A stretch of 64,000 nucleotides of DNA, taken from positions 140,269-204,268 of the forward strand of contig JBKEBX010000012.1 of the NCBI GenBank assembly GCA_047973385.1. Direction: 5' to 3'. The stretch's first letter is position 1, and each line of letters opens with the position of its first letter. The notes under the pieces are model-generated. The model did not search any database. It had not been told where the DNA came from and was given only the letters and a program-made list of their open reading frames with translations. This document shows, one piece after another, positions 589 to 46,287 of this stretch. Source of the DNA: Lachnospirales bacterium (lineage in GTDB: Bacteria > Bacillota > Clostridia > Lachnospirales > CAMZNU01). The translations under genes were made by a program, and so were the position numbers.

Positions 589-707
589 AAGTTAAGTTAG
601 CTAAACTACTTATAAATAACATAATGGGTATATTTGAGTTATTACTTACTGATTTTAAATATACCCATTTAATAACAGATAATATAAAAAAACAAGGGGG
701 TGTAGTG

Positions 708-2231: not shown

Positions 2232-2236
2232 TAAAA

Positions 2237-3214: not shown

Positions 3215-3227
3215 GGGGAATTGCATT

Positions 3228-4448: not shown

Positions 4449-4459
4449 GAGGACTTGTA

Positions 4460-5542: not shown

Positions 5543-5559
5543 GACTTCGGAGGAAAGAT

Positions 5560-16549: not shown

Positions 16550-18962
16550 TTTTTTTCCTTTCATCAAAACAGTGAGGCAAAGCTTCTGTAACTTTTGAAA
16601 CAAAAACAACTTCAATGTCTTTTGTGATATAATCTTCTAAATCATAAAAATGGCTTTTGTTTTTGGAAGGTATGAGGAACTTGTGTATCCCATAGTTTTT
16701 ACCGGCAAGTATTTTTTCTTTTAATCCACCGATAGGCAAAACATTACCTTTCATTGAGATTTCTCCAGTCATTGCAATATTTGCATTGACTTTGGAGTTT
16801 GACAAGATAGAGTACAATCCCATTGTGATGGCAAGTCCTGCAGATGGTCCATCTTTAGGTGTAGCACCTTCAGGAACGTGAATACTAACATCAATTTTAC
16901 TAAAGTCTATTTTTTGGAAACCAAAAGTTTTGGCATTAGACTTTAAATAAGCCATTGATATTCTTGCACTTTCTCCCATAACTTTTCCTATGTTACCTGT
17001 GAAATCAATTTTGCCGTTACCGTTAAATATAGCAAATTCCATAGGTAGAACTGTACCACCGTAAGAAGTGTATGCAAGGCCGTTTACAACTCCAACAGTT
17101 TTTGTTTTTATATTTATTGTTTTAAGTTCACGTTTTGCACCTAAATAATTTACAATATTGTTTTTGTTTATACTTACTTTAGTAAAATTTTCATTAGTAA
17201 GTTTTTCTAAAACCACTTTTCTACATATTTTTCCAATAGATTTTTCCAAGTTTCTTACACCTGCTTCTAAAGTGTAGTTTTCAACAATAGTAGTTATAGC
17301 TGTAAGTGGAATTGATAAGTCCTTATTTGTTAGATTATGTTTTTTAAGTAATTTAGGTATAAGGAAACTTTTTGCGATGTTTCGCTTTTCCTCAAGTGTA
17401 TATGTGTTAAGGTTTATTATTTCCATTCTGTCTAAAAGTGGAGCAGGTATTTTACTTTGGTTGTTTGCAGTACAAACAAATAGGCAATTTGATAAGTCAA
17501 AATCTAGTTCTAGGTACGTATCTCTAAAAGCAATATTTTGCTCTGGGTCAAGTACTTCAAGCATTGCACTTGAAGGGTCTCCTCTAAAATCGCTACTCAT
17601 TTTATCAATTTCATCAAACAATATAAGTGGGTTATTACTTTTAGCTTTAATTAGAGATGAAATAATTCTACCGTGAGTAGAACTAAGGTAAGTTCTTCTA
17701 TGTCCTCGTATTTCAGTTTCATCACGAATACCTCCTAGCGACAACCTAACATAGTTGCGATTTGTTGCTTTTGCGATACTTTTGGCAATAGATGTTTTTC
17801 CAACTCCAGGAGGTCCAACAAGACAAATTATAGTTGGTATATGTTCATTTGAAAATTGCTCAACGGCTAAATGTTCAAGTATACGTTCCTTGACTTTAAC
17901 AAGCCCAAAATGGTCAGAATTAAGTGTTTTTTCAGCATTTTTTATATTGTTATTAACTTTAGTAACCTGATGGTTACCCCAAGGAATACTTAAAGTTCTA
18001 TCAATGTAATCCTTTATATTACCAATTTCTTGAGAATTAGGTGGTAAGCTTTCTAAACGTGAAAACTCATTTTCTATTTTTTCCACTACATAATCAGGTG
18101 GGAGAATTTCAGCAAGTTTTTTACGGCATTCCTCTAAATATGCATTTATACTGGTGCTATCCCCGAGTTCTTCTTGAACTACTTTAAGCTTCTCTCGAAG
18201 CATATAGTTTCTTTGGGCTTCGTTCATAGATTTTTTAACTTTTTCCATTACTTCTTTTTCGATATTATGGTTAATATTTTGCATTTCTAAAAGTTCAAGG
18301 AAACAAGTTATTCTATCTAAAGCACTTTTGTTTTTTAAAAGCTTATTTTTTTCTTCTTTGCTAAAATTACTTTCTGTAATTAGAATATTCAAATATGTAT
18401 GAGAATTTTTAAAATTGTAAAAATTCGACACAACTTTTGCACCAATATTAAAATATTCATCGAAATTTACATTAAAGTTATCTGCACCAATACTTTTAAG
18501 CATACTTATATATGCTTTTTCTTTAACAGAATCTTTTGTAACAGGATATGATATTTCTGTAAATTTACATGATATGTAATTTCTTTTATTTACTAGCTCC
18601 AAAATTTTTGCAGCGTGTATGCAATATAACTCGAGTTTATAAGAGTTGTCCGACTCTTTACAAGTTAAAATTTTACATTTAACTCCAATATCGTAAAGAA
18701 GATGTAAATCTTTATTACTGTTAACTTTATTTTTATGATTTTTTTTAGTAACTAAGAAAATTTCTTTTAAACTAGATGTAGAGGCTAAAATAGAGTTTTT
18801 AGAAGACTCTTTATCTACGTCAATAGTTACAAAGGTACAAGGAAAAACAGTTATACTGTTAAGTTGTAACAGTGGTATAGAAGTATCGTTTTTATCTATA
18901 ATTTCAGGAATAATATAATTTTCTTTTGGAAAAATTTTATTTTGGTTATTTTTACTTTCCAT
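16536..18962 (-). CDS. lon: ATP-dependent Lon protease (LonA type)
   Basis: Walker A GPPGVGKTS, AAA+ core, the catalytic serine motif PKDGPSAG, and an N-terminal LON substrate-binding domain. It is 808 aa long. Confidence 0.93.
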   Translation of the reverse strand: MESKNNQNKIFPKENYIIPEIIDKNDTSIPLLQLNSITVFPCTFVTIDVDKESSKNSILASTSSLKEIFLVTKKNHKNKVNSNKDLHLLYDIGVKCKILTCKESDNSYKLELYCIHAAKILELVNKRNYISCKFTEISYPVTKDSVKEKAYISMLKSIGADNFNVNFDEYFNIGAKVVSNFYNFKNSHTYLNILITESNFSKEEKNKLLKNKSALDRITCFLELLEMQNINHNIEKEVMEKVKKSMNEAQRNYMLREKLKVVQEELGDSTSINAYLEECRKKLAEILPPDYVVEKIENEFSRLESLPPNSQEIGNIKDYIDRTLSIPWGNHQVTKVNNNIKNAEKTLNSDHFGLVKVKERILEHLAVEQFSNEHIPTIICLVGPPGVGKTSIAKSIAKATNRNYVRLSLGGIRDETEIRGHRRTYLSSTHGRIISSLIKAKSNNPLILFDEIDKMSSDFRGDPSSAMLEVLDPEQNIAFRDTYLELDFDLSNCLFVCTANNQSKIPAPLLDRMEIINLNTYTLEEKRNIAKSFLIPKLLKKHNLTNKDLSIPLTAITTIVENYTLEAGVRNLEKSIGKICRKVVLEKLTNENFTKVSINKNNIVNYLGAKRELKTINIKTKTVGVVNGLAYTSYGGTVLPMEFAIFNGNGKIDFTGNIGKVMGESARISMAYLKSNAKTFGFQKIDFSKIDVSIHVPEGATPKDGPSAGLAITMGLYSILSNSKVNANIAMTGEISMKGNVLPIGGLKEKILAGKNYGIHKFLIPSKNKSHFYDLEDYITKDIEVVFVSKVTEALPHCFDERKKNESK

Positions 18963-19027
18963 AACCTACCTCTTTCTATTTTTTATTATTTATTAAGTAA
19001 ATATCTAAAAAATCGCTTATTTTAATC

Positions 19028-19118
19028 TATCATAAAGTAATTTTCATAGAAAATTACAATAATCTTAATGTGTAGCTGTATTTTATGTAGCTACGCATTT
19101 AGTTTATTATATCATAAA
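19028..19118. repeat. 91-bp structured intergenic repeat, an inverted copy of 24152..24242
   Basis: The reverse complement matches 24152..24242 at 89/91 positions by hand alignment. It holds two hairpins, GTAGCT..AGCTAC and GTAATTTTC-nnn-GAAAATTAC, plus TTTATGATATAAT-like boxes. Confidence 0.75.
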
Positions 19119-19402
19119 TTAAACAATGGAGTTTTTAGAGGTGACATTAAGATTTAATATATAATTTAGTAGCTTTTAAACTATACTTTAGATATTTATT
19201 ATATAAAGCTACTTAAAATACTATGTAATATTGAAATGTTTGTATTTCAAGGTTACCATATACTATTTTAAATGTTTTTGTAGAAAAAAACAAGTAAAAC
19301 TTTTAAGAGTAAATTTTTGTATACATTTTTAAAAAAAATTATTGAATTAATAGTTTGTATGATGTATAATAATTATGGGGATAAAAGTTACTAATTGAAG
19401 AG

Positions 19403-19801
19403 GTGTATATGTATAGAAAGTTTTTTATTTTTATAATTGTGTGTATAATGATTGTTACTTTTTTTATGATAAATAAAGAGTTTAGATTTTTTACCCTTGT
19501 AACAGATAATGATGATAGGTTAGTTTCTTCTTTCGCTGCATTTAATGGAGTTGAAAAAAGAGAGGTTTATGTTCCAAAGGATAATGTTTTAAATATATAT
19601 AGTGATGTTACTATAAGTAAAGGCGATGTTGATATTGCCGTTTACAATGAAAAAGGTAAAGAAATCACGAGAATTGGGGAAGGTATAGATGTAACATCTA
19701 TTCGTTCAGGTGTAGACCAAAATATTACAATATCTATTGAAGCTAAGTGGGCTACTGGTGATTTTGATGTGTATTGGAAAGTAAGTGAAGATGTTAACTA
19801 A
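19403..19801 (+). CDS. Hypothetical membrane-anchored protein (132 aa)
   Basis: N-terminal hydrophobic helix FFIFIIVCIMIVTFFMI. An upstream promoter-like TTGAAT-17-TATAAT is present, and a strong terminator follows. Confidence 0.55.
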   Translation: MYMYRKFFIFIIVCIMIVTFFMINKEFRFFTLVTDNDDRLVSSFAAFNGVEKREVYVPKDNVLNIYSDVTISKGDVDIAVYNEKGKEITRIGEGIDVTSIRSGVDQNITISIEAKWATGDFDVYWKVSEDVN

Positions 19802-19829
19802 AAAAAGCTAGTGCGTACTAGCTTTTTTT
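19801..19829. terminator. Bidirectional intrinsic terminator
   Basis: AAAAAAGCTAGT-gcgt-ACTAGCTTTTTTT sits directly after the 19403..19801 stop. It is also correctly placed for the convergent small ORF. Confidence 0.75.
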
Positions 19830-19892
19830 AGTTACATTATAAGAGAAGTTTAAAATCTTAAATGAATTTTTTACAAGGTATGGAAATATGTT

Positions 19893-20027
19893 TTAGAAAA
19901 TATCGTTTACTTTATTTTTTATTTTCTTAGCACTTTTCATAGCTTTCTTTTTATTTTTTCTTACAACTGCATATGTTGTAACACCAAGAGTTAAAGCTCC
20001 CATCATTGCACGTCTTTGCATATCCAT
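19893..20027 (-). CDS. Unlisted small ORF, 44 aa, a basic single-helix membrane peptide (MDMQRRAMMGALTLGVTTYAVVRKNKKKAMKSAKKIKNKVNDIF)
   Basis: Hand translation. A strong RBS, AGGTGGTGA, lies 5 nt upstream of the ATG. The ORF ends before the shared terminator and is below the 60-aa cut-off of the ORF track. Confidence 0.4.
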   Translation of the reverse strand: MDMQRRAMMGALTLGVTTYAVVRKNKKKAMKSAKKIKNKVNDIF

Positions 20028-20274
20028 AACTATCACCACCTATACTATTTGTTTTTGGTATATTGTTAAATTTTAAAGGAAAAATAAGGTACAGTTTTAA
20101 AGATAAGTAATACAGTACCAAAAATTACAAGAAATAAATTTGTGCAATCTTAAAAAAATCAAGTTTTTCAAAACAATTGATTTAAACTATATTGCTTTTA
20201 TAACTTGTAATATGTATTTTGTACAAAAAAATAAATTTTTATACAAAAATACTTTTTTAAATGTTGCAAAAGTA

Positions 20275-20318
20275 AAAAAGACTGTAAAAATCGCATTAGC
20301 GATTTTTACAGTCTTTTT
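20275..20318. terminator. Perfect 20-bp stem hairpin, probable terminator of the trkH-trkA-trmH-ppiB transcription unit
   Basis: AAAAAGACTGTAAAAATCGC-atta-GCGATTTTTACAGTCTTTTT. Confidence 0.7.
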
Positions 20319-20330
20319 CGAAAATAAATA

Positions 20331-20458
20331 GGCAACGTTGCAAAATTCGTTTTACCGAGGACATTAGCGTAAAACACATCTTTTTGTGTATTTATATATA
20401 CATGGCAAAGCTATACTTTAAGCCGTTCCTATAAAAATGAAAATTTTGAAACGTCTTG
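20331..20458. repeat. ~128-bp element with the same terminal motif as E4/E2 (GGCAACGTTGCAAAAT ... AATTTTGAAACGTCTTG); MITE-like family copy E3
   Basis: Terminal inverted repeats found by hand alignment. It lies between the ppiB stop and its terminator hairpin. Confidence 0.45.
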
Positions 20459-20507
20459 AATTTGTATTGCAAATTTTGGCATAATTGCACTTTGTTGATG
20501 ATACCAA

Positions 20508-37391: not shown

Positions 37392-38675
37392 ATGTCTGTT
37401 AAGGTAGAAAATCTAGAGGCGAATATAGTAAAGTTAACTTTTGATGTGCCTAAGAAAACTTTTGAAGAAGGTATAGAAGTAGCTTATAAAAAAATTAGAG
37501 GTCAAGTTAATATCCAAGGATTTAGAAAAGGTAAAGCACCTAAGCAAATGATTATTTCTCAATATGGTAAAGAAGTATTTCATGAGGAAGCTTTAAACCA
37601 TTTTATGCCAGACTTATTAATGGAAGCTGTTGATGAACATAAACTTGAAGTTGTTTCAAGACCATATACTAAGATAACTGAAGAAAACGAAGAAAATGTT
37701 TTAGTTGAAGTACAAGTTTTTGTTAAACCTGAAGTTAATGTTGAAAACTACAAAGGTGTAGAAGTTCCTAAAACTGACTTAGAAGTTTCTGATGAAGAAG
37801 TTATGGAAAATATCTTAAAAGAACAAGAAAAATCAGCAAGACATGTTGATGCAAGTGATAAAGCTATTGAAGATGGCAACCTTGTAACACTTGACTTTGA
37901 AGGATTTAAAGACGGAGTTGCTTTTGAAGGTGGAAAAGGTGAAGACTACGATTTAATTATTGGTAGCCATACATTTATTGATACTTTTGAAGAACAACTT
38001 ATTGGACTTAAAGTTGATGAGGAAAAAACTTTAACGGTTACTTTCCCAGAAAATTATGGTCAAGCAGAATTAGCAGGTCAACCAGCTGACTTTAAAGTTA
38101 AAATTAAAGATGTTAAAGCTCGTGAATTACCAGAGATTGATGATGAATTTGCTAAAGATGTTAGTGAGTTTGATACATTAGATGAATATAAAGCATCTAT
38201 TAAAGAAGAATTAGCTAAAAACAAAGAAACTTCTGCTAAATCTAAAAAAGAAAATGATGTTGTTGAAAAATTAATAGAAGAAACTAAGTTTGATGTACCA
38301 CTTGTTATGGTTGAAAATCAAATTGATAATCAAGTGCGTTCTTTTGAACAACAAGTTAAGCAACAAGGTATTGAACTTGAACAATACTTAGAGTTTATGG
38401 GACAAACGGTACAATCTCTAAGAGATGTATACAGAGAACAATCTGAAAAGCAAGTTCGTGGTAGATTGATTTTAGAAGATATTGCTAAAAAAGAAGCTTT
38501 TGAAATTTCAGAAGGTGAAGTTGATGAAGAAGTTCAAAGAATAGCTGATATGTATCAAATACCAGTTGAAAATGTAAAAACATCTATGCAACCTCAAGAC
38601 GTTGAGAGTTTGAAAAATGATTTATCTGTTCAAAAAGCACTCAAGTTTATTGTGGAAAATGCAGTAGAAGTATAA
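37392..38675 (+). CDS. tig: Trigger factor
   Basis: The ribosome-binding motif GFRKGKAP, a central FKBP domain, and a length of 427 aa. Confidence 0.93.
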   Translation: MSVKVENLEANIVKLTFDVPKKTFEEGIEVAYKKIRGQVNIQGFRKGKAPKQMIISQYGKEVFHEEALNHFMPDLLMEAVDEHKLEVVSRPYTKITEENEENVLVEVQVFVKPEVNVENYKGVEVPKTDLEVSDEEVMENILKEQEKSARHVDASDKAIEDGNLVTLDFEGFKDGVAFEGGKGEDYDLIIGSHTFIDTFEEQLIGLKVDEEKTLTVTFPENYGQAELAGQPADFKVKIKDVKARELPEIDDEFAKDVSEFDTLDEYKASIKEELAKNKETSAKSKKENDVVEKLIEETKFDVPLVMVENQIDNQVRSFEQQVKQQGIELEQYLEFMGQTVQSLRDVYREQSEKQVRGRLILEDIAKKEAFEISEGEVDEEVQRIADMYQIPVENVKTSMQPQDVESLKNDLSVQKALKFIVENAVEV

Positions 38676-38686
38676 ATAACAAACTT

Positions 38687-38708
38687 AAAGGGGTGAAAAC
38701 CCCTTTTT
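38687..38708 (+). terminator. Intrinsic terminator after tig
   Basis: AAAGGGG-tgaaaa-CCCCTTTTT. Confidence 0.75.
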
Positions 38709-38774
38709 CTAATATGTATATTTGGTAAAAAATTGGATATAATATTTTATATTAAAAAGAAAGTGGTGAAAAAT

Positions 38775-39356
38775 ATGCCTTTAGTACCTTATGTAATTGA
38801 ACAAACAGGTCATGGTGAACGTTCCTATGATATTTATTCTAGACTTTTAAAAGATAGAATTATTTTTTTAGCTGATGAAGTAAACGATACAACTGCAAGC
38901 GTTATCATTGCACAATTATTGTTTTTAGCAGCACAAGATTCTGAAAAAGATATAAGTTTTTATATAAACAGCCCTGGAGGCTCTATTTCGGCAGGTCTTG
39001 CTATTTATGACACTATGCAATATATAAAGCCAGATGTTTCAACGATTTGCGTTGGTATGGCGGCATCTATGGGTGCCTTTTTATTGGCAGGTGGAACAAA
39101 GGGAAAAAGACTTGCATTACCTAACTCTGAAGTTATGATACATCAGCCACTTGGTGGTGCAAAAGGTCAAGCAACAGATGTTTTGATATACGCAGATAGA
39201 CTTAAAAAATCTAAAGAGAAGATGAATAAAATGTTAAGTGAGTTTACGGGTCAACCTCTTGAAGTTGTTCAAAGAGATACAGAGAGAGATAATTTTTTAA
39301 GCTCAGATGAAGCTTTAGAATATGGACTTATTGATAAGGTTGTAACAAAACCGTAA
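38775..39356 (+). CDS. clpP: ATP-dependent Clp protease proteolytic subunit
   Basis: [32 protein letters not shown], the catalytic Ser (GMAASMGAF) and MIHQP. Start at ATG 38775. Confidence 0.95.
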
Positions 39357-39380
39357 ATGGTTGTATATGGAGGATATTAA

Positions 39381-40856
39381 ATGAGTAATGACTTTGGCGC
39401 AGGAAAAAATATACATTGTAATTTTTGTGGTAAAGGCAAAACAGAAGTAGATGTTATTGTTGCAGGGCAAAATGCCTTTGTTTGTAACGAATGTATATAT
39501 ATTTTAAGTAAAATAGAAGAAGTGTTTAATGTTAATTTAGAACTGTTTTTGAAGTACGACAGTGATCCTTTTTTTGATTTACTCGATGAGGGAGCTATAT
39601 CAAAAACTGATATATATGAAAAACTTCAAAAAATGGGTGAATTGCTCGAAAATGAGGGCTTTGATTATGAAGGCTTTTTAGATGAAAACAGTGAAGAAAA
39701 CAGTGAAAGCGATGAAATGTTTACGTTGCCAACGCCTAAAGATATGAAGAATTTTCTTGATGAATATGTTATTGGTCAAGAAAATGCCAAGAAAACTTTA
39801 GCTGTTGCAGTGTATAACCACTACAAGAGAATTGGCGTTGGAAATGCTGAAGAAACTGATGTAGATGTTCAAAAATCTAATGTGTTACTTATAGGTTCAA
39901 CTGGTTCTGGTAAAACTTATTTAGCACAAACTTTAGCTAAATATTTAAATGTACCTTTCGCAATTGCTGATGCTACAACACTTACAGAAGCAGGTTATGT
40001 AGGTGAAGATGTTGAGAATATTTTATTAAAACTTTTACAAAGTTGTGATTTCGATGTAGAAAGAGCAGAAAAAGGTATTATTTATATAGATGAAATTGAT
40101 AAGATTTCTAGAAAATCAGAAACAGTTTCTATAACTCGTGATGTTTCAGGTGAAGGTGTTCAACAGGCTATTTTAAAGATTTTAGAAGGTACTGTTGCAA
40201 GTGTTCCACCTCAAGGTGGCAGAAAACACCCTAATCAAGAAATGATTTCAGTTGACACTAAAAACATTTTGTTTATTTGTGGTGGCTCTTTTGCAGGAAT
40301 AGAAAAAGTTGTAGATAAAAGACTTAACAAAAAAGTAATTGGTTTTAATACTGATAATGATAAGGACACTAGCTTAGATGAAAGTAAAGGGGTACTTAGA
40401 AATGTAATTGGTAAAGACTTGCAAAAGTTCGGTATAATTCCTGAACTTGTAGGTCGTTTGCCTGTTATAGTATCTTTAGAGGACTTAGACGAAGAAAGTT
40501 TAGTACGCATTTTATCTGAACCTAAAAATTCTATAATTAAACAATATAAATATTTGTTTGGTTTAGAAGGTGTGGAACTTGAGTTTGATGAAAATAGTCT
40601 ACGTGCAATTGCTAAGAAAACTATTGAAAGATCAACAGGTGCAAGAGGTTTAAGAGCTATTTTAGAAAGTATTATGGGTGATGTTATGTATGAAATACCA
40701 TCAAATCCTAATATTAAGAAAATAATTTTCCATGAGGGGACTATAACAAACAATGAACCTCCGGAGATCGTTAATGACGAGAGTATTACGGAAAAAGAGC
40801 CTATTATTATAAAAATGCGACAAAAACCTATTAAGAAAAAATCAAGATGGGCATAA
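39381..40856 (+). CDS. clpX: ATP-dependent Clp protease ATP-binding subunit ClpX (with an unusually long acidic linker and a basic C-terminal tail)
   Basis: Zn-finger CNFCGK...CNEC, Walker [18 protein letters not shown], and the pore loop GYVGEDV. Confidence 0.93.
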
Positions 40857-40975
40857 ACGAAAAAGGTAAATGCCGTATTAATGGCATTGTCAATTAAGTT
40901 AATTAAAATATAAAGGGGCTGTAAGGAAATCTCACATTATATGAGTTGCCTTTCAGCCCTTTGTGTGCCATTATT

Positions 40976-43696
40976 TCAATTTTGCAACGTTTCCATATAC
41001 GTTTCATAGTCTTTGTAAATATTATTATTTATACTATCATAGAAAAGATTTGTATTTTCGGAAATAGTATAAATTCTTGATGAGTTAATAGATATAGAGT
41101 ATTGTAAAGAAACCTCTTTAATAAGGTCAAAAACATCAATACATTTGATTTTATTTTGTTCAAGGAAAAATTCAAGGAGTTCATCAAGCTTAATATTTTT
41201 TTTACCTTTAACAAGAACCTTATTGCCTCCAACTCTTAAGTATGAAAACAAATCACGAGCCTCTATTAAAATTGAAGTAAAGAACCAATCAGGAAAATCA
41301 AATTTATGTAGTCTATGATGGAAGCCTGATTTTAGTAGACTGTATACGGTGAAATAATCGTTGGAAACATTATTGTAAACATAATTAACATAGGTTTTTA
41401 TATCATTTTTATCTATATTATATTTTTTTGTAAGGGTTTCTATATTAATATATTTTTTGGGGAAATATTCTATAACTTCATAGTCCAATTTTAGTTTATT
41501 TATACAGGACACATATGAAACGATTGTAGTTATTTCTTTTGGAAAAGTTAAGGTTTCAAAATAATCATACTTTAAAATATAATTATTGAAAAAATCAAAG
41601 GCTGTAGGGTATTTTTCACTAATTATGTAGTTAGAATATACTTTAAATCCAATGGATTTCATTGTATAAGTATTCAAATATTTTTGGCTACTTTGAGAAA
41701 AAGCTTCTAAAAATATTTTTTCTACTTCATAAAAAAAGTAGAAATCCTTTACAAGTAATCCTTGTAGTTTTTTTTCAAATTCCTCACTTAGCTCGGGAAA
41801 ATCCACCTTATAGTAATCGTCATAAAAATACACATCAATAGTATCTAAACAGTTTGAAAGTACAGTTTTATAAGAAACTCCAAACTCTTCTTGATAGGCT
41901 TTTGCAAAATTATATTTAGTGATTGGAGCAAGTTTTATAAGCAAATCTAAAACTTGTTTATCAATATCAGGTGTACCAAACTCAATACTTGGCATTCTTG
42001 CAAAGCTTAGGGTTGGGTATTCTTCCTTTGTACAAATTTTTTTAAGTAAATTATGCAGTTCATATTCATCAACTATATCGTATTCCTTCATAAGTTCAGG
42101 ATACATCTTAAAAAATTTATTTGTCGAATATTTCGTATTTTGATATTGATTTGAGTTAAGATTTAAAGTGCTTAGAAAATCAGAAAAATCGTATAGAGTT
42201 GTGTCATAATATCTAAAACGCTTACCATATTTCCACAAAGCATATGGACTTGCAGAAAGCTTATTTTCATAGCTTCTATCAAGAGGGGTTAATTTTTCGT
42301 TATTTGAAAGCCCTGAAGTTTTTAACAGGTCACAATATATGTTAACAAATTCCTTAAATGTAACACTATCTTTAGTATAATTTCTTAAAACATAGTTAGA
42401 TAAATCATTTTTAGTACAAGGTATATACTTTTTATCTATTTTAACATAATTTTTATAGATTGCTTTTTCTAAAGTTGTTTTTACACTTTTAGGAATGGTA
42501 TGGTCATTTAAAATATCATTTAAAGGACGTTTATTAGGGTTGTTTTTAACTTTTCGTATGTATAGATAGTTATATGTTGTATTTGAACCGAAAACTAGTT
42601 TAAAGTCCTCAGAAAAAATATTATAATTGTCATATATTTCTCTATACAAGTCCTCACGAAATTTCAACTTGTTTTTATCAAAATATTTAAAAATATCTTT
42701 TTCTATTTGTCGAATTCGCTCACGAGTTAGTCCTAAATTCTTCCCAACAGTTTCTAAAGTTTGCCCCTTCAATCGACTTTCTAAAATGTTAAGCTTTTTT
42801 GTGTTTAGAAAATTTGGTGCAACTGTTTTAATGGGAGGAGAGTATATAATATATCTGTTTTCTTCTAACAATTCCAATCTGTTTTCTCTACATAAATTAT
42901 TTAAAATAAAATTTATGTATGCATAACTATTGAAATATTTTGGCATAATATTCAAAATATCACTTGTAGTTAAGCCGTATGGCTGGTTGTATATAATATT
43001 TAACAAATAATTTTCAAAGATATTTTGTAAATAAACACTTTTATATAAAAACTCATTAAACTCATCACTATTTAAAAAATCATATTTATCTACATAAGAA
43101 TTTTTTTTAATATTGCTTATAAATTTGCCTAAAGTTTTAGTTTTTTGTTTATAAAAACTTAGCTTAGATATGTCAATATATTTTGTAATTTCTCTAGCGA
43201 GTTCAACACAAACTTTTTCTGTAAAATTAGAAATCAATATATTACTTGAGTATAAAGTGAAATCAGTGTTATTTTTTATATATTCAATCTCATTTATAAC
43301 TCTTGTACCAAGTGTTGAATTTTTCTTTAGGTTTTGTGTTTCAAAAGTTAAAATATCAGAAAAATATAAAATATTATTTTCTTTTAATGAATTATATGTG
43401 TTTATGCTCATTTTAATATTTTTAATAGAAATATCAATACAAATTTCATCTTTATTATTAATAAAAAGTTTTTTGCTTTCGTTAAAAAGACTAGGGTATT
43501 TAACTTTAAGATTGTCTATACAATCTAAAATTTCCCGAAGGCTTTTATCGCCTATATTTTTCATTTGATAAATTTCCATATAGGTAAGCTTAGACAAATC
43601 TTCATATGTATTGTGATTAGCTTCCTTTAGGGCGTTTTTAGAACGTGAAGAAATTGGTAAATCAGTTATTGATTTTTGTGCAATATCTCTTTTCAT
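40976..43696 (-). CDS. Large (906 aa) hypothetical DNA-binding protein with two RpoA-C-terminal-domain-like HhH modules, a sigma-70 region-4-like HTH and a ~550-aa uncharacterised C-terminal region
   Basis: The first module is LPISSRSKNALKEANHNTYEDLSKLTYMEIYQMKNIGDKSLREILDCI (alpha-CTD pattern). A second, weaker copy is MSINTYNSLKENNILYFSDIL...LGTRVINEI. The HTH is GQTLETVGKNLGLTRERIRQIEKDIFKYF. Codon usage is very AT-rich. Confidence 0.6.
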   Translation of the reverse strand: MKRDIAQKSITDLPISSRSKNALKEANHNTYEDLSKLTYMEIYQMKNIGDKSLREILDCIDNLKVKYPSLFNESKKLFINNKDEICIDISIKNIKMSINTYNSLKENNILYFSDILTFETQNLKKNSTLGTRVINEIEYIKNNTDFTLYSSNILISNFTEKVCVELAREITKYIDISKLSFYKQKTKTLGKFISNIKKNSYVDKYDFLNSDEFNEFLYKSVYLQNIFENYLLNIIYNQPYGLTTSDILNIMPKYFNSYAYINFILNNLCRENRLELLEENRYIIYSPPIKTVAPNFLNTKKLNILESRLKGQTLETVGKNLGLTRERIRQIEKDIFKYFDKNKLKFREDLYREIYDNYNIFSEDFKLVFGSNTTYNYLYIRKVKNNPNKRPLNDILNDHTIPKSVKTTLEKAIYKNYVKIDKKYIPCTKNDLSNYVLRNYTKDSVTFKEFVNIYCDLLKTSGLSNNEKLTPLDRSYENKLSASPYALWKYGKRFRYYDTTLYDFSDFLSTLNLNSNQYQNTKYSTNKFFKMYPELMKEYDIVDEYELHNLLKKICTKEEYPTLSFARMPSIEFGTPDIDKQVLDLLIKLAPITKYNFAKAYQEEFGVSYKTVLSNCLDTIDVYFYDDYYKVDFPELSEEFEKKLQGLLVKDFYFFYEVEKIFLEAFSQSSQKYLNTYTMKSIGFKVYSNYIISEKYPTAFDFFNNYILKYDYFETLTFPKEITTIVSYVSCINKLKLDYEVIEYFPKKYINIETLTKKYNIDKNDIKTYVNYVYNNVSNDYFTVYSLLKSGFHHRLHKFDFPDWFFTSILIEARDLFSYLRVGGNKVLVKGKKNIKLDELLEFFLEQNKIKCIDVFDLIKEVSLQYSISINSSRIYTISENTNLFYDSINNNIYKDYETYMETLQN

Positions 43697-43769
43697 AAAT
43701 TACTCTCCTAAATTATATTTAAAATTTACAATTTATATTGAATATCTTTTATGTTATTTACTTGTTATA

Positions 43770-44747
43770 TTAAAAAAAATCAGAATAGTACTTTAGCTTA
43801 GTATATGCAAGAGGATAATGTTGTAAAACATCATAGCAAAACTCATCAACAAAGCATTGATTTCTTTTGTGTTTAGCGTGTAAAATAGCTTTTATGCCAA
43901 TACATATAGCAGGTTCTACATTGTTTATTTCTTCTGCGTATGTAATCTTAAACAATATCTTATATGATGTTTCTAAATCATAGGAAAAATCATTTTCTAT
44001 ACAAAAGTTAATCAGTGATTGACATATTTCTTTGGCAAAAATATAATTACCTTTTTCTAAATATAGACTAGCCAAGCTATTGTTAGCTATTATATAATTT
44101 CTGTATACAGACATAGGTATCATAAAACAAGGTATAGTTTCACTAGAATAATGTGATCGCATAGAGTTTATTATAAGATCTAAAAGTGTTTTACTATTTT
44201 TATATTTTGATTTTTTTGCATAGATGACTGCCATTAAGTTAAAAACAGCATATGAAGATTCATAGCCTAAAAAGCTTTCTTTGTGAGCTTTTTCAAAATC
44301 ATATTCCGTAGTGTTAAGGGCGTAAAAACAATAGTCCAAAGCTTTGTTATCCTCATTGTTACCATAAAAAGCAATATATGCTTTTCCTAAAAAAATGATT
44401 TGTTTGTATGCAGAATAATCTAGAGATAGAATTTTTTCATCGCTAGATTTTGAAAGTAGTGTTTTGAGCTTAGATATATTTTTATGCTCAATATAGCGTT
44501 TTATTTCTTGGTATCTTTTATACTGTTCTTTTGAGTTAAAATGAATAATAACATCAGCATATGAACCAACATAAATCTTTAAAGACTTACATAAAGCAGA
44601 TATAGTGTTGATATTTGACTTGTATGTATTATTATCAATTCTGTGAATTTGCCGACTTGAAATGTTTGATAGTGCTTCAATTTGGCTAACAGTATACTTT
44701 TTTTCATCTCTAAAATATTTTAGGATATCTCCTATTTCAGTACTCAT
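43770..44747 (-). CDS. XRE-HTH plus TPR-like repeat transcriptional regulator (Rgg/PlcR-type, RNPP-like)
   Basis: N-terminal HTH (KYTVSQIEALSNISSRQIHRIDN) followed by ~260 aa of helical repeat-like sequence. The 325-aa length is typical of Rgg/PlcR-type peptide-sensing regulators. Confidence 0.65.
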   Translation of the reverse strand: MSTEIGDILKYFRDEKKYTVSQIEALSNISSRQIHRIDNNTYKSNINTISALCKSLKIYVGSYADVIIHFNSKEQYKRYQEIKRYIEHKNISKLKTLLSKSSDEKILSLDYSAYKQIIFLGKAYIAFYGNNEDNKALDYCFYALNTTEYDFEKAHKESFLGYESSYAVFNLMAVIYAKKSKYKNSKTLLDLIINSMRSHYSSETIPCFMIPMSVYRNYIIANNSLASLYLEKGNYIFAKEICQSLINFCIENDFSYDLETSYKILFKITYAEEINNVEPAICIGIKAILHAKHKRNQCFVDEFCYDVLQHYPLAYTKLKYYSDFF

Positions 44748-44793
44748 ATAAATTACCTCATTACTTTTAAAAAATACAAAATCAACAATACTA

Positions 44794-44822
44794 TTGTAAA
44801 TTAATTGGTTTTATATTATAAT
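44794..44822 (+). promoter_or_regulatory. Near-consensus sigma-A promoter (TTGTAA - 17 nt - TATAAT) driving the 17-codon ORF, with the overlapping palindrome ACAATA-c-TATTGT (44785..44797)
   Basis: Read directly from the sequence. It is divergent from the regulator gene. Confidence 0.45.
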
Positions 44823-44838
44823 ATTACTTGGTTAGAAA

Positions 44839-44892
44839 ATGAAAATAATTTATATTTTACTTTTCGAGAACAATTGTGAAGGATTGTTCTAA
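44839..44892 (+). CDS. Unlisted 17-codon ORF MKIIYILLFENNCEGLF, a candidate short hydrophobic signalling pro-peptide
   Basis: Hand translation. It has its own promoter upstream and a hairpin directly after the stop. It is divergent from the Rgg/RNPP-like regulator. The RBS is weak. Confidence 0.35.
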   Translation: MKIIYILLFENNCEGLF

Positions 44893-44933
44893 AAAATGTT
44901 ATAATTCGTTATATACAAATTATAACATTTTTT
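44891..44933 (+). terminator. Perfect 16-bp AT-rich inverted repeat followed by a T run (terminator or operator)
   Basis: AAAAAATGTTATAATT-cgttatataca-AATTATAACATTTTTT then TTT. Confidence 0.5.
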
Positions 44934-45067
44934 TTGTAAAAATACAAATATAAATATGTTGTTTTATATATATTTGCAATTTACCATAAATTATATAGTA
45001 TACTATCCTACAAAATGAAGAAAATATATGTATAAGTGAAACTCACTAAAATTCTTCGGAGGTATGT

Positions 45068-45861: not shown

Positions 45862-46287
45862 ATGGAAAAAGAATTGTTAAACTATGTATATAAAAATGCT
45901 CAGATGGGCGTAGAAACACTTTCGGGACTTATAAACATTACAGAAGATAAAAGCTTCAAAAATGAGCTTAAAAGTCAATTTGAAGAATATTCATCAATTT
46001 TAGATGAAACAAAGATGCTTATATCTAAAAATGATGAAGATGAAGAAGGTTTAAGTCTATTTGAAAAAATTGAAAGCTATATTACACTTAATATCAAAAC
46101 TTTAAAGGATAAAAGTTCTTCTAATATTTCTGAAATGTTGATAATCGGTAGTACTATGGGAACTATACAAGCTACAAGGTCAATAAACAAGTATAAGGGT
46201 AAATGTTTTGAGGAAGAAATCAAGCTTATGGAAAAGTTGTTGGACACTGAAGAAAACAATATTAAAGAATTGAAAAAATATTTATAA
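45862..46287 (+). CDS. Hypothetical helical protein (141 aa) downstream of sigG
   Basis: Good RBS and tight spacing after sigG. No motif recognised. Confidence 0.5.
   Translation: MEKELLNYVYKNAQMGVETLSGLINITEDKSFKNELKSQFEEYSSILDETKMLISKNDEDEEGLSLFEKIESYITLNIKTLKDKSSSNISEMLIIGSTMGTIQATRSINKYKGKCFEEEIKLMEKLLDTEENNIKELKKYL

What the first reader, a model, noticed from the sequence alone, without database searches (positions are those of the whole stretch)
40976..44933. AT-rich insert after clpX: Rgg/RNPP-like regulator, divergent 17-codon peptide gene and a 906-aa RpoA-CTD/sigma-r4 protein, a possible peptide-signalling cassette of unknown output
Seen: on the - strand, an XRE-HTH plus helical-repeat regulator (325 aa) is followed after 73 nt by the 906-aa gene. 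A tiny ORF with its own promoter and terminator lies divergent from the regulator. The segment sits where lon-engB would normally follow clpX, and it is visibly more AT-rich than its neighbours. Established: Rgg, PlcR, ComR and other RNPP-family regulators are HTH plus TPR-like proteins controlled by short exported and re-imported peptides. Those peptides are encoded next to the regulator, often divergently as for SHP peptides. Inference: this is a quorum-sensing-type switch whose regulated cargo is the large putative DNA- or RNA-polymerase-interacting protein. I do not recognise this pairing as a described system. Its position next to sigG raises the possibility of a link to sporulation timing, but nothing in the sequence proves that.
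Basis: partly seen in the sequence, partly recalled or inferred. Interest (0 to 1): 0.75.

Follow-up and report, generated by a model that had tools for sequence, protein, structure and literature searches.

The report
Peptide-receptor regulator with orphan defence-type DNA binder
A PlcR-like peptide-sensing regulator sits just upstream of, and is probably co-transcribed with, a stand-alone copy of a large DNA-binding protein that elsewhere leads a three-gene nuclease-helicase operon of defence islands; the proposed 17-codon pheromone gene is not convincing and the pairing is seen nowhere else.

Summary
The ORFs, spacing and domains are as described. The 325-aa protein is a PlcR-like RRNPP receptor: its family profile matches PlcR end to end (E 3e-19), and its confident AF2 model matches PlcR-PapR-DNA best (TM 0.72/0.82). 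All four of its nearest homologues with visible upstream DNA have a divergent propeptide gene. Those genes have a signal-peptide-like N-terminus and strong ribosome-binding sites, and three carry 4-12 tandem pheromone repeats. The window's 17-codon ORF has none of these: its Shine-Dalgarno pairing is at background level, its length is at chance level (P = 0.49), and its AUG lies partly in a hairpin.

The 906-aa protein (two alpha-CTD domains, sigma region 4, then about eight winged helices, no enzyme domain) belongs to a family that normally leads an unnamed A-B-C operon. C is a PLD/HKD-SNF2 helicase, and the operon sits in defence islands and on plasmids. Here B and C are absent. None of about 110 other A loci has an RNPP regulator, and none of the regulator's relatives has A as cargo.

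The AT-richness reflects amino-acid composition, because GC3 equals the host's. No sporulation link is visible.

Verdict: a real RRNPP receptor probably co-transcribed with an orphan defence-type DNA-binding protein. This is a one-off arrangement of moderate interest. The A-B-C family itself is the more interesting lead.

The parts
40976..43696 (-). 906-aa 'A-family' DNA-binding protein (NCBI MFV0440398.1). Layout: alpha-CTD 1 (aa ~3-66), alpha-CTD 2 (aa ~88-145, key Arg replaced by Asn99), winged helix (aa ~244-284), sigma-70 region 4 HTH (aa ~295-340), then about eight winged-helix-like units to aa 906. No catalytic domain.
   Evidence: ORF. Pfam RNA_pol_A_CTD x2 at E 3e-20 and Sigma70_r4 at E 1.3e-6. 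AF2 pLDDT 85. Foldseek gives alpha-CTD matches at rmsd 1.3-1.8 A and 33-36% identity, sigma r4, and weak tandem-WH matches. The family profile hits only RpoA CTD and RpoD/SigA r4 in the PDB. The protein keeps 85% of strongly conserved family positions and 12/12 in sigma r4. Accession.
40916..40959 (-). Terminator-like hairpin (GGGCUG...CAGCCC) followed by a U-rich tract, 17 nt after the stop of the 906-aa gene. A second, weaker terminator-like site lies at 40869-40888. Likely end of the regulator-A transcription unit, shared with convergent clpX.
   Evidence: RNA fold of 40857-40980 (-): -30.9 kcal/mol, z = -4.5, 0 of 200 shuffles as stable. Terminator scan hit at 40888..40869.
43697..43769 (-). 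73-nt spacer between the regulator and the 906-aa gene. It carries a good Shine-Dalgarno (AGGAG), has no hairpin and no promoter match of 9/12 or better, so co-transcription is likely.
   Evidence: Sequence. SD duplex -7.8 kcal/mol. Fold z = -0.06. No promoter-like site in the spacer.
43770..44747 (-). 325-aa PlcR-like RRNPP-type receptor/transcription factor (NCBI MFV0440399.1): N-terminal XRE-type HTH (aa ~5-60) plus an all-helical TPR-like domain.
   Evidence: Family profile against the PDB: PlcR 2qfc E 2.9e-19 over profile positions 1-305 and PlcR residues 1-283; also Rgg2, RapF and the ComR HTH. Of 34 homologues, 20 hit TPR_2 and 3 hit RNPP_C. AF2 pLDDT 91.9, pTM 0.85. Foldseek top hit is PlcR-PapR7-DNA 3u3w_A (TM 0.72/0.82), then NrpR, Rgg2, PrgX, ComR and NprR.
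44771..44800 (-). Promoter-like site TTTACA-18-TATTTT, placed correctly to drive the regulator-A operon. This is a consensus match only.
   Evidence: 9/12 match. Position relative to the SD and ATG at 44747.
44785..44797 (.). Perfect 13-bp palindrome ACAATAcTATTGT, unique in the 64-kb window. It overlaps the -35 regions of both divergent promoter-like sites and is the candidate operator of the dimeric HTH regulator (inferred).
   Evidence: the only zero-mismatch match in the window, and no copy near the 906-aa gene. Overlap with the promoter-like sites.
44794..44822 (+). Promoter-like site TTGTAA-17-TATAAT upstream of the 17-codon ORF. It would leave only about a 10-nt leader.
   Evidence: 10/12. 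The number of such matches in the region is not above shuffles.
44839..44892 (+). 17-codon ORF MKIIYILLFENNCEGLF. It occupies the position of the propeptide gene in homologous loci but has no Shine-Dalgarno, no Sec-type signal peptide and no repeats, and its AUG lies partly in a stem. Either vestigial or a non-canonical SHP/PrgQ-like peptide.
   Evidence: chance P = 0.49. SD -2.7 against -9.3 to -13.4 kcal/mol in the four homologous propeptide genes; hairpin 44835-44865 covers the start codon.
44867..44933 (+). Two adjacent hairpins: 44867-44890 inside the ORF's 3' end, and 44891-44933 (19-nt arms, 95% complementary, A-run before and U-run after, so bidirectional terminator-like). They end any plus-strand transcript before the sigG promoter region.
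   Evidence: repeat I4.: -26.9 kcal/mol, z = -4.8, 0 of 200 shuffles as stable. No Rfam family.
44019..44047 (+). Perfect sigma-70 consensus TTGACA-17-TATAAT, antisense inside the regulator gene. It is the only 12/12 match in the window and a possible antisense promoter reading towards the 17-codon ORF and the hairpins.
   Evidence: one match in 64 kb; 1.8% of dinucleotide shuffles of the 4.5-kb region contain at least one.

Best explanation
The locus is a minus-strand two-gene unit. It is bounded by a divergent promoter region (44748-44838) and a strong terminator hairpin just after the 906-aa gene.

**Gene 1: the regulator.** It is a PlcR-like member of the RRNPP family, that is, a cytoplasmic receptor with an HTH and a TPR-like domain. 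This is shown by sequence profile and by structure.

**Gene 2: the A protein.** It is a stand-alone copy of 'A', the non-enzymatic DNA-binding first subunit of an unnamed A-B-C operon. B is an unknown protein of about 404 aa. C is a PLD/HKD nuclease fused to an SNF2 helicase. That operon lives in defence islands and on plasmids of Bacillota. Family membership and the absence of B and C from this window are shown.

**Most likely mode of action (inferred).**
- The regulator dimer binds the unique 13-bp palindrome, which overlaps both -35 regions.
- It thereby sets transcription of its own operon, and so of A, which has no terminator or separate operator in front of it.
- The same binding also sets transcription of a short plus-strand transcript.

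**What A can do here (inferred).** A binds DNA through an alpha-CTD (minor-groove, A/T tracts), a sigma region 4.2 helix almost identical to that of primary sigma factors (reads -35-like TTGACA), and a chain of winged helices. Without B and C it can only act as a DNA-binding, occluding or regulatory protein, or it serves partners encoded elsewhere.

**The ligand.** By homology the ligand is an imported oligopeptide. A canonical cognate propeptide gene is missing here. The 17-codon ORF is most likely a vestige of one or is not translated. The receptor is then an orphan that responds to a peptide made elsewhere, or acts without a peptide like other orphan RRNPP regulators.
For: **Regulator is RRNPP.**
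- The profile matches PlcR at E 2.9e-19, full length.
- The AF2 model has pLDDT 91.9, and its top structural hits are all RRNPP receptors, led by PlcR-PapR-DNA at TM 0.72/0.82.
- Homologues carry TPR and RNPP_C Pfam hits.

**The module layout recurs in relatives.**
- Divergent propeptide genes lie 115-200 nt upstream in L013, L015, L032 and L034.
- An MFS cargo gene lies 66-75 nt downstream of the regulator in L013 and L032/L033.
- Three relatives share a palindromic GTGAC-N6-GTCAC box in the same intergenic position, so a palindromic operator there is expected.
- The window has its own unique palindrome at 44785-44797.

**Co-transcription of the regulator and A.**
- The 73-nt spacer is unstructured (z = -0.06) and has no promoter-like site.
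- A strong hairpin follows A (z = -4.5).

**Identity of A.**
- A matches its family at 99% coverage and up to 41% identity.
- A-B-C operons were found for P0004, P0007, P0008, P0010, P0020 and P0027 and in 28 or more metagenome loci.
- Neighbours include R-M systems, Cas9, a JetD-like gene, a KAP NTPase, an SLFN/AlbA gene, toxin-antitoxin pairs and IS elements.
- C matches the PbeA N-terminus at 1e-64 to 1e-72, and also DrmD, BrxH and ZorD helicase models.

**A is intact.** It keeps 85% of conserved positions, within the 79-88% range of distant operon-embedded members, and sigma r4 is kept 12/12.

**No B or C in the window**.

**The ORF is a weak propeptide candidate**.
Against: - There are no expression data. 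The promoters and the operator are consensus or uniqueness arguments only, and promoter-like matches in this AT-rich region are at chance frequency.
- The palindrome is unrelated to the GTGAC-N6-GTCAC box of the relatives and to the PlcR box. Its role as operator is unproven.
- Only 64 kb of a 242-kb contig, and of a whole MAG, was visible. B, C or a propeptide gene could lie elsewhere.
- The window's A retains fewer conserved positions (85%) than comparably distant operon-embedded members such as P0018 and P0021 (93-94%). It has also lost the key Arg of the second alpha-CTD. Both are compatible with relaxed or changed constraint.
- The pairing is a single occurrence. It could be a fortuitous juxtaposition.
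Confidence: 0.45

Rival explanations
1. This is the first reader's model: a complete quorum-sensing cassette. The 17-codon ORF encodes a short SHP/ComS/PrgQ-like pheromone precursor. It is exported without a Sec signal, for example by PptAB/Eep, and is re-imported. It then binds the receptor, which switches on the 906-aa gene at high cell density.
For: - The ORF sits where the propeptide gene sits in all four informative relatives: divergent, and 91 nt from the regulator against 115-200 nt there.
- It starts MK + hydrophobic stretch, like their signal peptides.
- Its 17 aa is within the 10-100 aa range used for RRNPP propeptides, and SHP and PrgQ propeptides lack Sec signals (PMC10075063).
- It has a promoter-like site next to the palindrome and a strong terminator-like hairpin.
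Against: - There is no Shine-Dalgarno: -2.7 kcal/mol equals the background of all ATGs, whereas the four homologous propeptide genes have -9.3 to -13.4 and the window's genes average -8.0.
- The AUG lies in a predicted stem.
- The ORF length is at chance level (P = 0.49).
- K/I/L/F/Y/N-rich peptides are what AT-rich sequence encodes in any frame.
- There is no similarity to the xxMW pheromone repeats of the relatives.
- The regulator has no Rgg-specific (TIGR01716) match.
- No homologous locus exists in which to test conservation.
Confidence: 0.2
2. Decaying remnant. A piece of a former mobile or defence island was stranded at a rearrangement breakpoint. The receptor has lost its propeptide gene and A has lost B and C. 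The two genes have no joint function and are on their way to loss.
For: - B and C are absent and no canonical propeptide is present.
- The locus lies exactly where the conserved clpX-lon linkage was broken.
- The pairing is unique among about 110 A loci and the regulator's relatives.
- The window's A shows somewhat lower retention of conserved residues and has lost Arg99.
Against: - Both ORFs are full length (99% family coverage for A; end-to-end alignment to PlcR for the regulator), with good SDs.
- All 49 invariant family positions of A are kept.
- GC3 is fully host-like, which implies long residence without decay.
- Clean terminators flank the unit.
- Stand-alone A genes recur in other genomes, such as P0026/L012 and L105 among housekeeping genes. 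This suggests A can be useful alone.
Confidence: 0.25
3. The plus-strand element is not a peptide gene. It is a regulatory or insulating RNA feature. A strong antisense promoter inside the regulator gene (44019-44047), the promoter-like site at 44794, or both, drive a non-coding transcript. That transcript overlaps the regulator's 5' end, in a prgQ/prgX-like antisense layout, and is stopped by the double hairpin. The hairpin also protects the compartment-specific sigG gene from read-through.
For: - The only perfect sigma-70 consensus in 64 kb lies antisense in the regulator gene (P = 0.018).
- The region 44825-44945 is unusually structured (z = -4.8).
- The hairpin is bidirectional and sits between the island and sigG.
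- The ORF lacks translation signals.
Against: - No Rfam family matches.
- No homologous sequences are available for covariation.
- A single consensus match can still be chance in 25%-GC DNA.
- This reading is compatible with the best explanation rather than exclusive of it.
Confidence: 0.2
4. Sporulation-timing link. The cassette modulates sigG or forespore gene expression, for example by read-through into sigG or by A acting on RNA polymerase.
For: - The locus is adjacent to sigG.
- Some clostridial RRNPP systems affect sporulation (titles and abstracts of PMC7376267, PMC7206700 and PMC6414698, seen).
- A carries RNAP-derived domains.
Against: - A strong terminator lies between the cassette and sigG, and sigG keeps about 130 nt of its own upstream region.
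- A-family genes elsewhere sit in defence islands and on plasmids, not in sporulation loci.
- The adjacency coincides with a genome rearrangement.
- Regulator relatives sit in unrelated contexts.
Confidence: 0.04

Closest known systems
PlcR-PapR of the Bacillus cereus group (RRNPP family)
   Same: - Same overall fold and length: an N-terminal XRE HTH plus a TPR-like helical domain.
- Best sequence-profile match (E 2.9e-19, end to end) and best structural match (3u3w_A, TM 0.72/0.82).
- Relatives of the window's regulator use secreted propeptides and a palindromic box next to the propeptide promoter.
   Different: - Identity is only about 10-16%.
- papR lies downstream and co-directional; here, and in the relatives, the peptide gene position is upstream and divergent.
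- No PlcR box (TATGNAN4TNCATA) occurs near the locus.
- No canonical propeptide is present in the window.
Rgg/SHP, ComR/ComS and PrgX/PrgQ systems
   Same: - RRNPP receptors with short propeptides of about 17-25 aa that lack Sec signals and are often divergently encoded.
- Rgg2, ComR and PrgX are among the top structural matches.
- The prgQ/prgX-like idea of overlapping antisense transcription is echoed by the antisense consensus promoter.
   Different: - No Rgg C-terminal (TIGR01716) match.
- The 17-codon ORF has no ribosome-binding site.
- The closest relatives use propeptides with a signal-peptide-like N-terminus, three of them with tandem repeats, not SHP-type peptides.
Orphan RRNPP regulators without a known adjacent peptide gene (e.g. 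RstA of Clostridioides difficile; PMC6414698, title and abstract seen)
   Same: An HTH-TPR receptor in a clostridial-type organism with no convincing adjacent propeptide gene.
   Different: No detectable sequence relationship was tested or found. The target genes are unrelated.
Tandemly duplicated RRNPPA pheromone propeptides (PMC11343458)
   Same: Three relatives of the window's regulator (L013, L015, L032) encode propeptides with 4-12 tandem copies of the presumed pheromone.
   Different: The window itself has no such gene.
C-terminal half of PglW (type-2 BREX) and BrxA
   Same: - PglW is described as having an RNAP alpha-CTD-like helical domain followed by three wHTH modules. This is interpreted as a DNA-binding and sensing hub (PMC12839542).
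- A-family proteins give weak PADLOC PglW hits on exactly that segment.
- One A-fusion gene is followed directly by a full-length BrxP gene (E 5e-237).
   Different: - A has two alpha-CTDs plus a sigma-70 r4 HTH and about eight winged helices.
- A has no kinase, NERD nuclease or iSTAND domain.
- Its usual partners are B and a PLD-SNF2 protein, not BREX core genes.
PbeA (HKD nuclease + SF2 helicase of Dnd-associated PbeABCD) and DISARM DrmD / BREX BrxH / Zorya ZorD helicases
   Same: The C partner of A in other genomes has the same PLD/HKD + SNF2 architecture (PbeA N-terminus 1e-64 to 1e-72; PMC10853773).
   Different: - No PbeB, PbeC or PbeD partners, and no Dnd genes.
- No such gene exists in this window at all.
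Azaca (ZacABC) and MZA (MzaA)
   Same: Azaca is a three-gene defence system that includes a PLD-like nuclease and an SF2 helicase. MzaA is a sigma-70-family protein within a defence system.
   Different: - ZacA is a DUF6361 protein. Neither A, B nor C hits any Zac model in PADLOC.
- The MzaA match is only a 27-residue stretch of the region-4 HTH (E 7e-5 against a cut-off of 800 bits).

Membership tests
RRNPP quorum-sensing receptor-propeptide pair (signature of PMC10075063) | Receptor of 250-500 aa | tested here: met
   325 aa.
RRNPP quorum-sensing receptor-propeptide pair (signature of PMC10075063) | Receptor carries a TPR-type peptide-binding domain (with an N-terminal HTH in the transcription-factor members) | tested here: met
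   - The query alone gives only sub-threshold HTH_26 (20.8 bits against a 22-bit cut-off) and no TPR Pfam hit.
- The family profile aligns end to end with PlcR (E 2.9e-19).
- Of 34 homologues, 20 hit TPR_2 and 3 hit RNPP_C.
- The AF2 model (pLDDT 91.9) superposes on PlcR-PapR-DNA at TM 0.72/0.82.
RRNPP quorum-sensing receptor-propeptide pair (signature of PMC10075063) | Adjacent small ORF (10-100 aa) encoding the propeptide | tested here: inconclusive
   A 17-codon ORF is adjacent and divergent. An ORF of that size occurs by chance in 49% of shuffles.
RRNPP quorum-sensing receptor-propeptide pair (signature of PMC10075063) | Propeptide has a credible ribosome-binding site and a secretion signal (Sec, or SHP/PrgQ-type for PptAB) | tested here: not met
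   - SD duplex is -2.7 kcal/mol, which is background level. The homologous propeptide genes have -9.3 to -13.4.
- The hydrophobic stretch is only 7 residues and there are no repeats.
- No SHP HMM was available, so the SHP-type option could not be scored.
- No other small ORF with an SD exists in the intergenic regions, apart from a 10-codon ORF inside a terminator hairpin.
RRNPP quorum-sensing receptor-propeptide pair (signature of PMC10075063) | Peptide binds the receptor and changes its activity | not testable with these tools
   This needs binding assays or a complex prediction.
Rgg/SHP subfamily | Rgg-type C-terminal domain (TIGR01716) | tested here: not met
   The NCBIfam scan of the regulator returned only PRK04140 at E 0.014.
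PlcR regulon-type control | PlcR box TATGNAN4TNCATA at target promoters | tested here: not met
   Six one-mismatch matches in 64 kb, none within 40857-45067; 6.4 are expected by chance.
A-B-C operon family (alpha-CTD/sigma-r4/winged-helix protein + B + PLD-SNF2 helicase; unnamed) | A protein homologous over its full length | tested here: met
   99% coverage, up to 41% identity, E down to 6e-201. All 49 invariant columns of a 20-sequence alignment are kept.
A-B-C operon family (alpha-CTD/sigma-r4/winged-helix protein + B + PLD-SNF2 helicase; unnamed) | B (~404 aa) and C (PLD/HKD + SNF2) genes immediately downstream of A | tested here: not met
   Convergent clpX begins 120 nt after A. tblastn of B and C against the whole window finds nothing (best E 1.6).
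Bacterial RNA polymerase alpha subunit (RpoA) | N-terminal dimerisation/assembly domain plus one CTD | tested here: not met
   Only the CTD part of the rpoA models matches (model positions ~232-313), at 61 bits against a 277-bit cut-off. Two CTD copies are present and no NTD.
Sigma-70 family sigma factor | Region 2 (core binding and -10 recognition) together with region 4 | tested here: not met
   Only Sigma70_r4 matches (aa 308-336). No r2 or r3 match.
Known defence systems in PADLOC v2 (incl. Azaca, MZA, BREX, DISARM, Zorya) | Significant full-length match of the 906-aa protein or the regulator to a system component | tested here: not met
   - A: only the MzaA r4 stretch (E 0.0033).
- Regulator: only generic HTH models (HTH_VI, RmrA, CapH N-termini).

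The most novel reading that the evidence does not exclude
A-family proteins carry a copy of the promoter-upstream reading head of RNA polymerase: two alpha-CTDs plus sigma region 4.2, with the DNA-contact residues kept. They may act either as decoys for phage factors that hijack alpha-CTD or sigma r4, or as readers of strong foreign promoters, and in either case license a PLD-SNF2 nuclease-helicase. In this genome a stand-alone A would have been captured by a peptide-sensing RRNPP receptor. An immune-type DNA sensor, or a transcriptional competitor of RNAP at UP/-35 elements, would then be expressed as a function of cell-cell signalling. That would be the first RRNPP-gated member of an undescribed defence family.
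Probability: 0.08. Interest if true: 0.8.

Novelty: new variant of a known kind. Interest (0 to 1): 0.45.

Why it matters
RRNPP receptors are common, and one more would be routine. Two things lift this case a little.

- **An unusual cargo.** If the co-transcription inference is right, a peptide-sensing regulator would control a protein whose relatives belong to mobile-element and anti-phage conflict systems. That would add a case of signalling-dependent control of defence-type genes in anaerobic gut-type Bacillota.
- **An undescribed operon family.** Following the cargo uncovered a sizeable A-B-C operon family. Its lead protein combines RNAP alpha-CTD and sigma r4 modules with a winged-helix array. 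I found no description of it in PADLOC v2, NCBIfam 20 or the searchable literature. It is a testable candidate defence system, and it raises the question of why a defence sensor would copy the promoter-recognition parts of RNA polymerase.

The analysis also documents an RRNPP subfamily with divergent propeptide genes, three of four carrying highly repeated (4-12 copies) pheromone units.

Tried and rejected
- **Word-indexed homologue search with the regulator.** It returned only the regulator itself. The exhaustive HMMER search was needed.
- **Locus scans with alignments.**
  - The genome-contig scan with the A alignment was swamped by the sigma r4 pattern and gave only four local r4 hits.
A3 ran on viral contigs but confirmed no relative.
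- **Phage and plasmid collections.** There is no regulator homologue in either and no A homologue in phages.
- **Azaca identity for A-B-C.** Rejected. ZacA is a DUF6361 protein and there are no Zac HMM hits.
- **MzaA, RpoA or sigma-factor identity for A.** Rejected, because the matches are to local domains only.
- **PlcR box and the relatives' GTGAC-N6-GTCAC box.** Neither occurs at the locus.
- **Second copy of the palindrome in front of A.** None found.
- **Known RNA family for the structured plus-strand element.** None.
- **Flanking direct repeats or a tRNA as insertion signatures.** None.
- **Foreign codon usage.** Rejected, because GC3 equals the host value.
- **A repeat-type propeptide gene elsewhere in the window.** None found by TRF or by the small-ORF/SD scan.
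- **An Opp permease at 624-6393.** Rejected; those ORFs encode a sugar-type ABC transporter and methylthioribose-salvage-like genes.
- **Remote homologue for B.** No PDB or Pfam match.
- **AFDB fold search for A.** The library was unavailable.
- **Remnant of B or C at the other rearrangement junction (18963-20507).** Nothing there.

Full report
**1. What is in the sequence**

The two minus-strand ORFs are as described. A 906-aa ORF lies at 40976..43696 and a 325-aa ORF at 43770..44747, 73 nt apart. They lie between tig-clpP-clpX on the plus strand (ClpX 617 bits) and sigG on the plus strand (NF006071, 388 bits). The source is a Lachnospirales MAG; the proteins are MFV0440398.1 and MFV0440399.1 on a 242-kb contig.

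The intergenic region 44748-45067 holds an ATG ORF of 17 codons, MKIIYILLFENNCEGLF, at 44839..44892 on the plus strand. It is followed directly by a hairpin with 19-nt arms (44891-44933), preceded by an A-run and followed by a U-run.

lon and engB/ysxC are not after clpX. They are in the window at 16536-18962 and 15953-16615 on the minus strand. The usual clpX-lon linkage has therefore been broken by a rearrangement whose junction is at this locus.

The two genes are more AT-rich than their neighbours: 25.1% and 27.1% GC against 31.6 +/- 2.5%. Their GC3 (19.4% and 19.9%) equals the host value of 18.3 +/- 2.1%. The difference is one of amino-acid composition, not of foreign codon usage. I found no flanking repeats and no tRNA.

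**2. The regulator**

On its own the protein gives only sub-threshold HTH hits. It has no relatives in the word-indexed search. An exhaustive HMMER search found 43 relatives, the nearest at 33% identity.

- A profile of 34 of these relatives aligns end to end with PlcR (2qfc, E 2.9e-19). It also hits Rgg2, RapF and the ComR HTH.
- Twenty of the 34 relatives hit TPR_2 and three hit RNPP_C.
- The AF2 model is confident (pLDDT 91.9, pTM 0.85).
- Its best PDB match is PlcR-PapR7-DNA (3u3w_A, TM 0.72/0.82 over 303 columns). NrpR, Rgg2, PrgX, ComR and NprR follow.

The closest known relative is PlcR rather than Rgg, and there is no TIGR01716 match.

**3. Is a divergent peptide gene conserved next to homologous regulators?**

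Yes, but not of the kind present here. Four relatives had readable upstream DNA:

| Locus | Divergent ORF | Distance from regulator |
|---|---|---|
| L013 | 65 aa: MKKLLLLSALTLAIGGVV + 4 x APSTLDHAMWTL | 194 nt |
| L015 | 58 aa: MMKKIILTSALSLVVFMGVNT + 4 x HEQMIWAKDA-type units | ~116 nt |
| L032 | 179 aa: signal-peptide-like N-terminus + 12 x PETFEHEMWASNxVA | 200 nt |
| L034 | 42 aa with a signal-like N-terminus, no repeats | 138 nt |

All four have strong Shine-Dalgarno sites, with duplex energies of -9.3 to -13.4 kcal/mol. Tandemly duplicated RRNPPA propeptides are a described phenomenon (PMC11343458).

The window's ORF is in the right place, 91 nt away and divergent, and it begins MK + hydrophobic residues. 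Everything else argues against it:

- Its SD pairing is -2.7 kcal/mol. That is the 48th percentile of all ATGs in the window, against a mean of -8.0 for real genes.
- Its AUG lies partly in a predicted stem.
- It has no Sec-length hydrophobic core and no repeats.
- An ATG ORF of at least 17 codons appears in 49% of shuffles of the same 320 nt.
- No other small ORF with an SD exists in the three intergenic regions, apart from a 10-codon ORF inside a terminator hairpin.
- TRF finds no repeat-type gene in the window.

By the published RRNPP signature (PMC10075063) the receptor criteria are met and the propeptide criteria are not.

**4. Regulatory anatomy**

- Three relatives share a palindromic GTGAC-N6-GTCAC box between the propeptide gene and the regulator. 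The window lacks this box and also lacks a PlcR box.
- The window has its own perfect 13-bp palindrome, ACAATAcTATTGT, at 44785-44797. It is unique in the 64 kb. It overlaps the -35 hexamers of both divergent promoter-like sites. Promoter-like matches as such are not enriched here (40 found against 35 +/- 6.5 expected).
- No second copy of the palindrome precedes the 906-aa gene.
- The 73-nt spacer is unstructured (z = -0.06) and has no promoter-like site. The 906-aa gene has a good SD.
- A strong hairpin with a U-tract follows its stop codon (40916-40959; z = -4.5).

The simplest reading is one regulator-A transcript that is autoregulated at the palindrome. This is an inference.

On the plus strand, 44825-44945 is unusually structured (z = -4.8), and no Rfam family matches it. 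The only perfect sigma-70 consensus of the whole window lies at 44019-44047, antisense inside the regulator gene (P = 0.018). A transcript from there would cross the regulator's 5' end and the small ORF, and it would stop at the hairpins before sigG.

**5. The 906-aa protein**

*Domains and fold.*
- Pfam finds two alpha-CTD domains and sigma-70 region 4.
- The AF2 model has pLDDT 85 but pTM only 0.42, so the relative arrangement of the domains is uncertain. Its secondary structure shows the two alpha-CTDs, a winged helix, the r4 HTH and about eight further winged-helix-like units, with no enzymatic fold.
- Foldseek gives alpha-CTD matches at rmsd 1.3-1.8 A and 33-36% identity. It also gives sigma r4 and weak matches to tandem-WH proteins.
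- The family profile hits only RpoA CTD and RpoD/SigA r4 in the PDB.
- The family consensus keeps the alpha-CTD DNA-contact motif (R..N ... G.KS). It also keeps a region 4.2 helix (TLEEVG....VTRERIRQIEAKA) close to that of primary sigma factors. The comparison with E. coli residues is from my own knowledge.
- In the window's copy the second alpha-CTD has Asn in place of the key Arg, while r4 is intact.

*Genomic context of homologues.*
- Six homologues with long contigs (P0004, P0007, P0008, P0010, P0020, P0027) all lead an operon A-B-C with overlapping or abutting genes. B is about 404 aa with no Pfam, NCBIfam, PADLOC or PDB match. C is a PLD/HKD + SNF2 helicase of about 856 aa.
- C matches the PbeA N-terminus at 1e-64 to 1e-72 and, more weakly, DrmD, BrxH, ZorD and DpdE.
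- Neighbours of these operons include a Dcm/MutH/Mrr/Vsr R-M cluster, Cas9, a JetD-like gene, a KAP NTPase, an SLFN/AlbA gene, a GIY-YIG gene, recombinases and conjugation genes.
- Forty-eight Enterococcus plasmid records carry a shorter A' (no alpha-CTD) with B' and a helicase.
- One IMG/VR contig has an A fusion next to a full-length BrxP gene (E 5e-237).
- A pattern scan of metagenomes for the invariant YELHNLLKK returned 120 loci, 101 of them with an A gene of at least 400 aa. Of 81 interpretable loci, 52 have B adjacent (28 with full A-B-C) and 29 lack the B-type partner. Some of the 29 have other partner genes, and some are true orphans among housekeeping genes, such as L105.
- None of these loci contains a relative of the regulator.

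*This window.* It has no B or C anywhere. Its A keeps all 49 invariant positions and 85% of the strongly conserved positions. Distant operon-embedded members keep 79-88%, while comparably distant ones keep 93-94%. The gene is intact, perhaps under altered constraint.

*Closest described architecture.* This is the C-terminal half of PglW of type-2 BREX: an alpha-CTD-like domain followed by three wHTH modules, read as a DNA-binding and sensing hub (PMC12839542). It is consistent with the weak PglW hits. A-B-C is not Azaca, because ZacA is a DUF6361 protein and there are no Zac HMM hits. I found no paper describing it.

**6. Interpretation**

*Shown.*
- The regulator is a bona fide PlcR-like RRNPP receptor.
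- The second gene is an intact stand-alone member of a defence-island and plasmid A family.
- They form a compact two-gene unit with clean ends.
- No canonical propeptide gene is present.
- The pairing is unique among all loci examined.

*Inferred.* The regulator is co-transcribed with A and autoregulates the operon at the palindrome. A acts as a DNA-binding protein without its nuclease-helicase partner. The 17-codon ORF is vestigial or untranslated.

*Rivals.*
Its support is position and the precedent of Sec-less SHP, ComS and PrgQ peptides.
- A decaying-remnant reading (about 0.25) is supported by the missing partners and the rearrangement junction. Intact ORFs, host-like GC3 and recurrent stand-alone A genes elsewhere argue against it.
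- A non-coding, antisense or insulator role for the plus-strand element (about 0.2) is compatible with the main model.
- A sporulation link has no support beyond adjacency (about 0.04).

**7. Verdict**

As a system this is a new variant of a known kind: an RRNPP receptor with an unusual, defence-type cargo and no canonical pheromone gene. Interest is moderate at 0.45. The apparently undescribed A-B-C family, met in passing, is the stronger lead.

Noticed in passing
L001, L002, L004, L010, L011, L035-L038; L039/L040 (Enterococcus plasmids); 28 or more of L041-L160: An apparently unnamed three-gene operon recurs in defence islands, conjugative elements and plasmids of Bacillota.
- A: alpha-CTD x2 + sigma r4 + winged-helix array.
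- B: about 404 aa. Its consensus contains VVLxDGRIIDGNRRFTCLR, which by eye looks like a ParB/Srx/DGQHR-type motif. It has no Pfam, NCBIfam, PADLOC or PDB match.
- C: PLD/HKD + SNF2 helicase.

The operon is not covered by PADLOC v2 or NCBIfam 20, and I found no paper describing it.
   Followed up: partly
L016:5971-12737: On an IMG/VR contig, a 1449-aa A-family fusion protein is followed directly by a full-length BrxP gene (the PAPS-reductase of type-4 BREX, E 5e-237). No other BREX core genes lie in the next 2 kb.
   Followed up: partly
L013:4609-4806(-), L015:3709-3885(-), L032:1538-2077(-): This subfamily of PlcR-like receptors has divergent propeptide genes that encode a signal-peptide-like N-terminus followed by 4, 4 and 12 tandem copies of a unit ending in xxMW(A/T/I) (DHAMW, EQMIWA, EHEMWA). 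A shared GTGAC-N6-GTCAC box lies in the intergenic region. The cargo in L013 and L032/L033 is an MFS transporter.
   Followed up: partly
window 44019-44047 (+): The only perfect TTGACA-17-TATAAT in the 64-kb window lies antisense inside the regulator gene, pointing towards the small ORF, the hairpins and sigG. Only 1.8% of shuffles of the 4.5-kb region contain such a site.
   Followed up: partly
window 15953-18962 (-) versus 37392-40856 (+): lon and engB/ysxC are inverted and lie about 22 kb from tig-clpP-clpX. An inversion has split the usual clpX-lon-engB cluster, and one junction coincides with the regulator-A unit.
   Followed up: partly
window 40903-40935 (-): A 10-codon GTG ORF, MRFPYSPFIF, with a moderate SD (-7.2 kcal/mol) lies inside the terminator hairpin downstream of the 906-aa gene. 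It is probably chance.
   Followed up: no
L012 (Pseudobutyrivibrio sp. 49) and L105 (fermentation metagenome): Other stand-alone A genes lack B and C.
- In L012 the gene lies beside an IS110 transposase and a type I R-M system with a TIR protein.
- In L105 it lies among what look like housekeeping genes (judged by eye from ORF translations).

The orphan state is therefore recurrent.
   Followed up: partly
window 45862-46287 (+): A 141-aa ORF lies immediately after sigG, 11 nt downstream. It has no family match in Pfam or NCBIfam.
   Followed up: no
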